Part shown: positions 18,462 through 61,406 of the stretch, one piece after another
Position numbering within the stretch: position 1 is the first letter of the stretch
Layout of the letters: every line of letters starts with the position of its first letter
Origin: Eledone cirrhosa
Taxonomy: Eukaryota
Direction of reading: 5' to 3'
DNA length: 64,000 nucleotides
NCBI GenBank assembly: GCA_964016885.1
Contig: OZ024743.1
Span: forward strand, 52,390,001-52,454,000
Position numbers and translations under genes: made by a program
Notes under the pieces: generated by a model
Told to the model about the DNA's origin: nothing
The model's database searches: none
The model's input: the letters and a program-made list of their open reading frames with translations, nothing else

Positions 18462-19452
18462 AACCAGTAAGACCCCGACAGCTGAGCTCAAGCCGTTTCG
18501 ACGGCTAATTCTGGACTAAATGAAAATTTATCCTGGTATTTAAATAGCCGATCTTCTCAAGGGGTAATTCCATATATGGTCAAAGTGATTGGCAAAAATC
18601 AGTAGTAATTCTGTGGTTGCAAATTAATAGGGGAGATGGTGGCTAGACCTGCCAGTAGGAGAAAGAGGGGAGGGGGTGGAGTAGTATCAATCAAGCGTTT
18701 GTAGTGCCAGCTACAGCTGGGCATGAGGTCAAAGAAGATACAGGGGAGGGGGAGGGGGAGGAAGTCGGAACGGTAGGTAGAACAATGGGGGGTAGAAATA
18801 TATAGGAAAGAAAATACTGAGAGTGAAGAAAAGCAAATAAGTGTAAAGAAAAACAAAAGAGTGTAAAGAAAAAAGTAAAGTAAATTAAATTCTACGACCT
18901 AGGTCTCTAGATATTGTTAGGCTAGAATAAATAAATAAATAAAGAAAGAAAGAAGTAAAGAAAGAAATAAAGAAATAACGAAAAGTAAAAGAACTAGGTG
19001 GGACGAAATAGGCGAGGACCCTTTTAAGAGGTATAAGTACGTAAATGATACGGTGACGGGTCAACAAAAGGGGCCAAAATACTAAAGAGACTACCACGAA
19101 ATAAACAATAAAGGTTTCCATCCCGGGCACAATTCCAGCAACCACCCAGTGCAGCAAAGTGAACTAATACGAGATAATAATTCAGAGTCCCGAGAAAAAT
19201 ATATACTAATTTGCAACCACAGAATTACTACTGATTTTTGACAATCACTTTGACCATATATGGAATTACCCCTTGAGAAGATCGGCTATTTAAATACCAG
19301 GATAAATTTTCATTTAGTCCAGAATTAGCCGTCGAAACGGCTTGAGCTCAGCTGTCGGGGTCTTACTGGTTCCTATTACCCACTCTACTACCTCAAGTAT
19401 TGAGTACTTTGGTGCGTTATGGTCCACCTGGTTCCTTACCACATTTCCTTCG

Positions 19453-20241: not shown

Positions 20242-21230
<989 letters not shown>

Positions 21231-21231
21231 G

Positions 21232-21584
21232 TATATATAGTGTATTTTGCAATACACTGTATGCTTAATTAAATCCATTTCGAAGACCTTATGCTATTGT
21301 TTTAGAGTAGTGACAGTCTCACTTACTTTAATTTTCAGCAAACAGGGGAGATAAAGCTGACAGAGTCCTGTTTCACATTTTTTGATGCTTATCAAAGCTA
21401 ACTACTCCTCCTGTTTGCTGAAAATCATGGATGTTTGATTCTTATAGAATTCTAGTAAATAATCAGCTTATAATTTGCTGAAAATTAAAGTAAGTGAGAC
21501 TGTCACTACTCTAAAACAATAGCGTAAGGTCTTCGAAATGCTTTTAATTAAGCATACAGTGTATTGCAAAATACACTATATATA
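21232..21584. repeat. Fold-back element with ~110-bp arms
   Basis: Arms 21232-21342 and 21474-21584; nested hairpin in the spacer. Confidence 0.85.
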
Positions 21585-23053: not shown

Positions 23054-23474
23054 CTGTACGTCTGTATACATATATGTATGTACGTATACATACATACTTA
23101 CATTTAAGTAAGTGCCGTACTAAGAGTGAGAAATGAAATTTCGTTTTCATTTTATTACAACTTATCGTTCTCGGTATGCCTGGCCGAACTCACTCGATAT
23201 GCAAATTAGGCTGCTCAGTCGTTAATTTTCATAAGGAAAGTATATACTTTCGAACGTTCAACCATCTGGCAGAAGGGTATACGGTGCTGATGATAGCTAA
23301 CAAGCTTGAAACTAGTACATCGTTCCTGTGTCAGTGTTGAACAAAAAGATGACGTCGTTGCCTTAACACCGTACGGCATAAATTCAGGCTGTTCAGTTTG
23401 TTTACAAACGAACAAAGCGGACGTTATAATAAGCGTCCGCTAAACTGATACGTACATATATGTATGTGTACCTG

Positions 23475-23524
<50 letters not shown>

Positions 23525-23574
23525 TGCTACTGTACGTCTGTATACATATATGTATGTACGTATACATACATACT

Positions 23575-23579
<5 letters not shown>
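23054..23579 (+). mobile_element. Terminally redundant hammerhead-containing element (retrozyme-like or tandem pLTR)
   Basis: 50-bp direct repeat at 23054-23103 and 23530-23579 (period 476) flanking a central hammerhead. Confidence 0.7.
23281..23323 (+). ncRNA. Minimal type I hammerhead ribozyme
   Basis: ACGGUG-CUGAUGA-uAGCU(AACA)AGCUu-GAAAC-UA-GUA-CAUCGU; palindromic stem III ACUAGU; predicted cleavage after 23317. Confidence 0.88.
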
Positions 23580-23611
<32 letters not shown>

Positions 23612-23616
<5 letters not shown>

Positions 23617-55974: not shown

Positions 55975-56178
55975 TGAAAAAGTATGACCCCGACGACAGA
56001 GCTCAAGCCGTTTCGACGGCTATTTCTGGACTACAAATAGTCCAGAAATAGCCGTCGAAACGGCTTGAGCTCTGCCGTCGGGGTCATAATTTTTCCTATT
56101 ACCCACTCTACTACCCTAAGTATTGAGTACTCTGGTGCGTTATGGTCCATCTGGTTCCTTACCACAATTCCTTCGTTA
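55975..56178 (+). mobile_element. Family A element, fold-back copy
   Basis: Palindrome centred near 56035; tail matches 19375-19455. Confidence 0.85.

Positions 56179-57928: not shown

Positions 57929-61406
<3,478 letters not shown>

What the first reader, a model, noticed from the sequence alone, without database searches (positions are those of the whole stretch)
23054..23579. Retrozyme-like insertion: terminally redundant ~476-bp unit with a minimal hammerhead and rod-like self-complementarity
Seen: a 50-bp direct repeat at both ends (period 476), no long conserved-looking ORF, and an intact-core HHR at 23281-23323 (CUGAUGA, GAAA, GUA, 6-bp stem I, palindromic stem III ACUAGU). Stem I extends outward through nested pairings: CUGGCA..AGG/CCU.UGUCAG, GUUCAAC(23256)/GUUGAAC(23336), UGCCGUAC(23112)/GUACGGCA(23371). 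Local hairpins include AGCGGACG/CGUCCGCU. Known: animal non-LTR retrozymes are small HHR-containing units that make circular RNAs, and HHRs with palindromic stem III can cleave as dimers. Inference: this is slightly more than one round of reverse transcription of a circular RNA, probably by a Penelope RT.
Basis: partly seen in the sequence, partly recalled or inferred. Interest (0 to 1): 0.75.

Follow-up and report, generated by a model that had tools for sequence, protein, structure and literature searches.

The report
Hammerhead retrozyme spread by Penelope enzymes
This is one copy of a non-coding repeat, present more than ten thousand times in this animal genome, that spells a predicted self-cutting RNA and lands in TA microsatellites with the two fixed ends typical of Penelope jumping genes, so it is likely an animal 'retrozyme' copied by a Penelope-type enzyme, possibly from a circular RNA.

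Summary
In detail: a 50-bp direct repeat (period 476), a type I hammerhead at 23281-23323 and nested stems. The unit belongs to a young non-coding family: 10,294 exact hammerhead matches, 35,055 within two mismatches, as monomers, head-to-tail arrays and head-to-head pairs. Copies are not circularly permuted. Their 3' ends fall at two fixed sites about 59 nt apart and run into (TA)n; 5' ends are scattered. All 39 scorable two-armed insertions pair one end of each kind, as the genome's coding Penelope-like families do. The 50-bp repeat is a 5' truncation plus fixed site 1. No copy examined is the pseudo-LTR of an ORF. Three insertions are direct chimeras with a young Hydra-clade-like Penelope ORF, the best but unproven mobiliser. 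Compensatory changes support the stems; the fold is branched, not rod-like. A circular template is plausible (about 55%) but unshown: no RNA data, and some arrays grew by local duplication. Verdict: new member of the known non-LTR retrozymes / non-autonomous Penelope elements. The scan noted the same footprint before on other DNA of this genome.

The parts
23054..23579 (+). Whole insertion: 1.1 periods of a non-coding hammerhead repeat, single arm, 5'-truncated, ending at family site 1
23054..23103 (+). Left copy of the 50-bp repeat; its left edge is this copy's own 5' truncation point (unit position R9)
   Evidence: 5' ends of other copies are scattered
23530..23579 (+). Right copy of the 50-bp repeat; ends at family 3' site 1 (unit position about R55-61), an inferred reverse-transcription start
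   Evidence: 36 of 83 scored 3' ends fall here
23104..23165 (+). Interval between site 1 and site 2 (about 59 nt), the Penelope-type 'tail'; internal in this copy
   Evidence: 44 of 83 scored 3' ends fall at site 2
23281..23323 (+). Type I hammerhead: 6-bp stem I, CUGAUGA, 4-bp stem II with U-U at its base, GAAA, palindromic stem III ACUAGU; predicted cut after 23317
   Evidence: 1 of 13 core positions differs between subfamilies that differ at 77 of 354 columns, and it is the free N7
23256..23342 (+). Stacked helices that extend stem I outward
   Evidence: both-sided changes at alignment pairs 178-232 and 188-224
23112..23379 (+). Long-range helix 23112-23120 with 23371-23379
   Evidence: two both-sided changes, U-A/A-U and G-C/A-U
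23416..23441 (+). Terminal hairpin AGCGGACG/CGUCCGCU
   Evidence: three pairs with common both-sided changes
23236..23251 (.). 16-bp palindrome; the inversion junction of one two-armed copy (L079) lies on it
23479..23521 (.). Internal (TA)n, part of the unit; its length accounts for much of the period variation (about 458-520 in the main subfamily)
23580..23613 (.). (TA)n run at the 3' junction, the inferred target; no target-site duplication is visible

Best explanation
The stretch is one 5'-truncated copy of a high-copy non-coding hammerhead repeat (a non-LTR retrozyme, i.e. a non-autonomous Penelope-like element) that was likely reverse-transcribed into a (TA)n target by the RT-endonuclease of a Hydra-clade-like Penelope element. 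Shown: family size, tandem and head-to-head arrays, two fixed 3' ends at (TA)n, scattered 5' ends, the one-of-each-site rule, chimeras with a Penelope ORF. Inferred: the enzyme cuts both strands of (TA)n and starts two cDNAs at two internal sites of the RNA, site 1 on one side and site 2 on the other; each cDNA runs across the hammerhead site for under one to about twenty periods and the two join at their truncated ends by short microhomology. In this copy only the site-1 arm is seen; it stopped about 50 nt into the second period, which made the terminal repeat. Inferred with less support (about 55%): the template is a monomer cut out of tandem transcripts by dimeric hammerheads and ligated into a circle.
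For: Copy number 10,294 exact and 35,055 at up to 2 mismatches, reversed-pattern control 0. 80 of 83 scored 3' ends at two sites, nearly all followed by (TA)n. Two-armed insertions with both ends scorable: 25 of 25 (of 34 examined) and 14 of 14 (of 21; two are one duplicated segment) pair site 1 with site 2, none pairs like with like. The same rule holds for coding family B (19 of 19), coding family A (17 of 20) and family C (24 of 24). Two internal start sites that define the tail were shown in vitro for a lizard Penelope element (PMC11167929). Families A and B carry Hydra-clade marks (DKT, CxCX5C, CxxC/CxH; PMC8557442 section 11), a clade reported to insert into (TA)n; B has open 821-aa frames and many near-identical copies. 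Direct unit/B-ORF junctions in L091, L094 and L229/L231. Stems kept by both-sided changes. For a monomer-level template: units of one insertion are alike (median 0.6% within, 5.6% between); 10 of 27 multi-unit arms carry a variant seen in all their units and in no other sampled insertion; unit-specific variants are not mirrored in the opposite arm (0 of 31; 0 of 48); 1 of 79 5' ends lies within 5 nt of the cut site, 2 expected by chance, so the template is continuous there.
Against: No autonomous element with this unit as its pseudo-LTR, or resembling it, was found, so the mobiliser is not identified by sequence. Seen from the Penelope side, direct chimeras are 1 of 69 B loci against 0 of 70 A loci, no real difference; junctions with other families also occur (C in L084 and L107, a second hammerhead repeat in L150). 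Against a circle being needed: L162 shows a duplicated two-unit block and L100 shares variants among non-adjacent units, so arrays also change at the DNA level; 5 of 33 multi-unit insertions are mixed at a family-level site; hammerhead-less non-autonomous Chlamys elements also form head-to-tail arrays (PMC8557442); the lizard enzyme used uncut RNA in vitro; 8 of 9 frog retrozyme dimers did not cleave. The count of pairs with both-sided change did not beat its shuffle (207 of 500) and most changes are single events between two subfamilies.
Confidence: 0.8

Rival explanations
1. Same Penelope enzyme and same two start sites, but the template is an uncut linear tandem transcript; long arrays are rebuilt by unequal exchange after insertion, and the hammerhead is an inherited or auxiliary motif with no circle in the cycle.
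For: Local duplication in L162 and patchy sharing in L100. No 5' pile-up at the cut site fits uncut RNA as well as a circle. Hammerhead mutants did not affect insertion in vitro for PAc. In the lowest-energy fold the core is sequestered.
Against: Mirrored unit-specific variants, expected if mixed multimers were copied, were not seen (0 of 79 testable), while array-wide private variants are common. The core is conserved across subfamilies 22% apart. Arms of about 20 near-identical units exist (L128 with L176).
Confidence: 0.35
2. The unit is the ordinary pseudo-LTR of an autonomous Penelope family, and the copies are 5'-truncated ends of that element.
For: Same ends, tail and inverted arms as coding families. 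Only a few hundred of more than 35,000 matches were inspected, so a rare ORF-bearing master could be missed.
Against: Upstream of the unit lies another unit, an inverted unit or unrelated flank; none of 69 non-self 5' junctions is a Penelope ORF end; 56 Penelope C-terminal ends scanned downstream lead to other pseudo-LTRs with other hammerheads, and the five unit hits lie 1.2 kb or more away; arrays of many units contain no ORF.
Confidence: 0.08
3. A satellite or fold-back DNA element that spreads by DNA-level recombination in (TA)n, with a chance hammerhead.
For: The unit contains (TA)n, and local duplication occurs.
Against: Dispersed loci on many contigs with polar structure (fixed 3' ends, scattered 5' ends), chimeras with Penelope coding sequence and RNA-type covariation.
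Confidence: 0.03

Closest known systems
Metazoan non-LTR retrozymes (Cervera and de la Pena 2020, PMC7229834, parts 2-4 of 6 read; Li, Clavereau and Pollet 2026, bioRxiv 10.64898/2026.07.22.740005, parts 1-3 of 5 read)
   Same: Non-coding tandem unit with one type I hammerhead per period, low GC, thousands of copies, monomers to multimers, stable self-paired fold; U-U at the base of helix II as in axolotl HHR_Amex2; short palindromic helix III.
   Different: Unit of about 420-520 nt, above the 170-400 nt of the 2020 paper but inside the 51-972 bp of the 2026 preprint; contains its own (TA)n; no target-site duplication seen; circular RNA and cleavage untested; no sequence likeness to a pseudo-LTR of a coding element found. 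The parts read do not describe fixed double 3' ends or head-to-head arms for retrozymes.
Endonuclease-bearing Penelope-like elements: insertion anatomy (Arkhipova et al. 2013, PMC3846280, passages; Craig et al. 2021, PMC8557442, passages and section 11; Frangieh et al. 2024, PMC11167929, parts 1-2 of 4)
   Same: Partial tandems, 5'-truncated inverted arm, tail on one end only, two internal start sites, AT-rich or (TA)n targets, hammerhead in the repeat.
   Different: No ORF; tail about 59 nt against 30-40 bp; arms of up to about 20 periods.
Hydra-clade Penelope-like elements (PMC8557442 section 11)
   Same: Host families A and B have DKT, CxCX5C, CxxC and CxH around E/N, a C-terminal GIY-YIG, hammerheads and (TA)n targets.
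   Different: RWT or RWR in place of RWK; no tree was built; the unit itself shares no detectable sequence with their pseudo-LTRs.
MRC1 and other non-autonomous Chlamys elements (PMC8557442, passage)
   Same: Non-coding Penelope-dependent elements that form multi-copy head-to-tail insertions.
   Different: Those generally resemble their autonomous partners at the 3' end, and most Chlamys lack canonical hammerheads.

Membership tests
Non-LTR retrozyme | Type I hammerhead in each unit | tested here: met
   Rfam match below gathering score
Non-LTR retrozyme | Short non-coding unit in tandem repeats, multiple genomic copies | tested here: met
Non-LTR retrozyme | At least two consecutive intact hammerheads (2026 preprint's 'active' criterion) | tested here: met
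   met by the family; this copy is a monomer with one hammerhead
Non-LTR retrozyme | No LTR, primer-binding site or polypurine tract | tested here: inconclusive
   the terminal repeat is a copy-specific partial tandem, not an LTR; PBS and PPT were not searched for
Non-LTR retrozyme | Stable self-paired RNA fold | tested here: met
   (prediction and covariation only)
Non-LTR retrozyme | Self-cleavage and accumulation as circular RNA | not testable with these tools
   no RNA holder listed
Non-autonomous Penelope-like element | Fixed 3' ends with an optional tail, variable 5' truncation, inverted 5' arm | tested here: met
Non-autonomous Penelope-like element | 3'-end similarity to an autonomous partner | tested here: inconclusive
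   none found in the families sampled; only a small part of the genome's Penelope families was seen
Pseudo-LTR of an autonomous Penelope element | Unit joined in register to the end of an RT + GIY-YIG ORF | tested here: not met
   0 of 69 non-self 5' junctions
Hydra clade (candidate mobiliser, family B) | DKT, CxCX5C linker, CxxC and CxH motifs, C-terminal GIY-YIG | tested here: met
Hydra clade (candidate mobiliser, family B) | RWK motif and placement in an RT tree | tested here: inconclusive
   RWT found; no reference sequences at hand, no tree built; Pfam gave no useful hit

The most novel reading that the evidence does not exclude
A Hydra-clade Penelope RT-endonuclease dimer copies this retrozyme by rolling around a ligated monomer circle from both sides of a (TA)n break, and the site-1/site-2 asymmetry is set by the protein, not by a shared RNA: in six of six insertions whose two ends come from different families (L091, L094, L229/L231 with B; L084, L107 with C; L003 with A, a TA run at its junction) one end is still site 1 and the other site 2. 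That would name an enzyme for animal retrozyme mobilisation and give a two-RNA model for Penelope insertion.
Probability: 0.3. Interest if true: 0.7.

Novelty: new member of a known kind. Interest (0 to 1): 0.42.

Why it matters
Penelope enzymes are proposed, not shown, to mobilise animal retrozymes (PMC7229834 Discussion; bioRxiv 10.64898/2026.07.22.740005). This family supplies junction-level evidence in one genome, a young candidate enzyme with open frames, and exact predicted start sites, so the step can be tested in vitro with the assay of PMC11167929. The class, the hammerhead type and the one-sided tail are already known, which limits the surprise.

Tried and rejected
Circular permutation of copy ends: rejected. 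Rod-like fold: rejected, branched. Ordinary pseudo-LTR: not found. Family A, first labelled Neptune in my notes from recall, was re-read as Hydra-like after and shows no likeness to the unit (output cut in the middle; the blast and motif parts were visible). Fold-back self-priming as the source of inverted arms (PMC3846280): only 2 of 31 junctions are symmetric palindromes; 25 of 31 join different unit positions with -3 to 7 nt overlap. RNA evidence: no RNA holder listed; four contig sets of unknown kind were laid and say nothing on expression or circles. Rfam miRNA and snoRNA matches are microsatellite noise. Pfam did not recognise the Penelope proteins. Sequence look-up in earlier findings was blank. 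Literature searches for octopus + hammerhead ribozyme + Penelope, retrozyme + cephalopod, Penelope + twin priming + inverted + tail, and Hydra clade + non-autonomous + hammerhead listed no paper on this family; only listings were seen, the library lacks most subscription papers, and supplements (including the preprint's, which are closed, and Craig et al.'s family files) were not read and may hold related sequences. Promoter type was not tested.

Full report
Observation. The window holds an identical 50-bp repeat at 23054-23103 and 23530-23579, period 476. Between them lies a type I hammerhead at 23281-23323: stem I ACGGUG/CAUCGU, core CUGAUGA and GAAA, a 4-bp stem II with U-U at its base, palindromic ACUAGU in place of a stable stem III, and a GUA cut after 23317. 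Rfam scores it weakly (17.6 bits against HH9, gathering 52). A U-U at the base of helix II is described for the axolotl HHR_Amex2, which cleaves weakly as a monomer and better as a dimer (PMC7229834); short palindromic helix III is typical of dimer-acting metazoan hammerheads (PMC4209133, passages). The microsatellite-free core folds better than all 100 shuffles (z -6.0), though 3 of 10 control stretches did better still; the circle is branched and 65% paired.

Family. A genome search gave copies 98-99% alike (40 of 2,273 candidates scored). The 37-nt hammerhead stretch occurs 10,294 times exactly, a relaxed 31-nt core 35,055 times within two mismatches, controls 0; the window's own sub-lineage has 64 exact matches. 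Sister subfamilies at about 77-83% identity have the same build (one search was cut in the middle). Between the main and one sister subfamily 77 of 354 columns differ, but only 1 of 13 core positions, the free N7; the other three hammerhead changes are a loop change and a G-U to U-G pair.

Ends. I mapped the first 100 exact matches along contig C1. Of 83 3' ends that stop within the first 125 positions of the unit, 36 are at site 1 (about R55-65), 44 at site 2 (about R108-121) and 3 elsewhere; nearly all run into (TA)n. Ends that stop in the unit's own TA run or outside the locus were not in this count. The 79 5' ends are spread over the unit, with 1 within 5 nt of the cut site against 2 expected. 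So copies are not circularly permuted, and the window's terminal repeat is a truncation at R9 plus site 1. Of 34 head-to-head insertions 25 had both ends scorable and all 25 pair site 1 with site 2; in a second positional sample 14 of 14 did (21 examined; two are a duplicated segment). Junctions mostly join different unit positions with a few bases of overlap (25 of 31). This matches the Penelope tail found on one end of an inverted insertion (PMC8557442; PMC3846280) and the two internal start sites shown in vitro (PMC11167929). Other families in this genome obey the same rule: B 19 of 19 (after correcting a mis-call), A 17 of 20, C 24 of 24.

Autonomy and partner. No long ORF belongs to the unit. 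None of 69 non-self 5' junctions is a Penelope ORF end, and 56 scanned Penelope C-terminal ends lead to other pseudo-LTRs with their own hammerheads. Families A and B encode RT plus C-terminal GIY-YIG with DKT, CxCX5C and CxxC/CxH motifs, the marks of the (TA)n-targeting Hydra clade (RWK reads RWT or RWR; no tree). B is young: 150 listed matches at 99-100% and open 821-aa frames. Three insertions join the unit directly to B coding sequence: L091, L094 and L229/L231; L165 joins it to a B relative. In L091, L094, L229/L231, L084, L107 and L003 the two outer ends come from different families and still pair site 1 with site 2; the L231 end was predicted before it was fetched. Against a firm assignment: from the Penelope side the direct chimeras are 1 of 69 B loci and 0 of 70 A loci, and junctions with families C and E also occur. 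Deletions between neighbouring insertions could mimic some chimeras.

Circle or linear template. Units of one insertion differ by a median 0.6%, units of different insertions by 5.6% (130 units, 53 insertions). Fourteen of 33 multi-unit insertions, and 10 of 27 multi-unit arms, carry a variant fixed in all their units and absent from the rest of the sample; 'private' is relative to that sample, and the second sample gave 2 of 15, one of them only because its haplotype was absent from that set. Unit-specific variants are not mirrored between arms: 0 of 31 in 8 insertions (L100 and L128 left out because an outer end lay outside the locus; L100 showed one apparent match) and 0 of 48 in 5. One arm reaches about 20 near-identical units. 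This favours one monomer read repeatedly, as a circle would allow. But L162 is a duplicated two-unit block, L100 shares variants patchily, 5 of 33 insertions are mixed at a family-level site, and the mirror test has few template-borne variants to work with. No RNA run was listed. I put the circle at about 55%. The window copy has one hammerhead and could not release a monomer alone.

Verdict. A new member of the non-LTR retrozymes, a class already proposed to be non-autonomous Penelope derivatives (bioRxiv 10.64898/2026.07.22.740005; PMC7229834). What this case adds is junction evidence, a candidate Hydra-like enzyme and the cross-family end rule. The scan's unreviewed notes report the same footprint elsewhere in this genome and in others; I reached it before reading them and count them as no support. 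The host looks like a cephalopod from a recalled repeat motif and those notes; this was not tested.

Noticed in passing
window 21229-21580: A second hammerhead-type repeat (family E) as a head-to-head insertion between (TA)n runs, with a decayed core on the minus strand at 21340-21409; in L150 a tandem of it is joined directly to the sister subfamily of the studied unit.
   Followed up: partly
window 58933-60263 and downstream; L031-L060: Penelope family A (Hydra-like). Its pseudo-LTR occurs in long and shorter forms that look like intron-retaining and spliced copies (L053, L056, L060), and its hammerhead-like motif has the variant core CAGAAGA with U-U at the base of stem II.
   Followed up: partly
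window near 18500, 19328, 53047, 56020-56051: Five matches to family C, a very common (TA)n-inserted two-armed repeat with a GAAA-stem-GUC motif but no clear canonical 5' core; it obeys the two-site rule (24 of 24). Whether it has an ORF was not determined.
   Followed up: partly
window 23614 onward, minus strand ORF in L001: A mariner-like transposase remnant (label from recalled motifs) abuts the (TA)n run after the element.
   Followed up: no
L244:2046-4508, L107: Family B's ORF carries a long asparagine-rich stretch between RT and endonuclease, like the N-rich inserts described in rotifer Penelope elements (PMC3846280 passage).
   Followed up: no
L159:about 1700-1730: A few telomere-like TTAGGG units sit inside a unit of the sister subfamily.
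   Followed up: no
runs X5 and X6: Contigs from two runs labelled as other organisms carry near-identical pieces of the unit; a related species or contamination, not resolved.
   Followed up: no
L164: A 2.6-kb segment holding a two-armed insertion is present twice in tandem.
   Followed up: no
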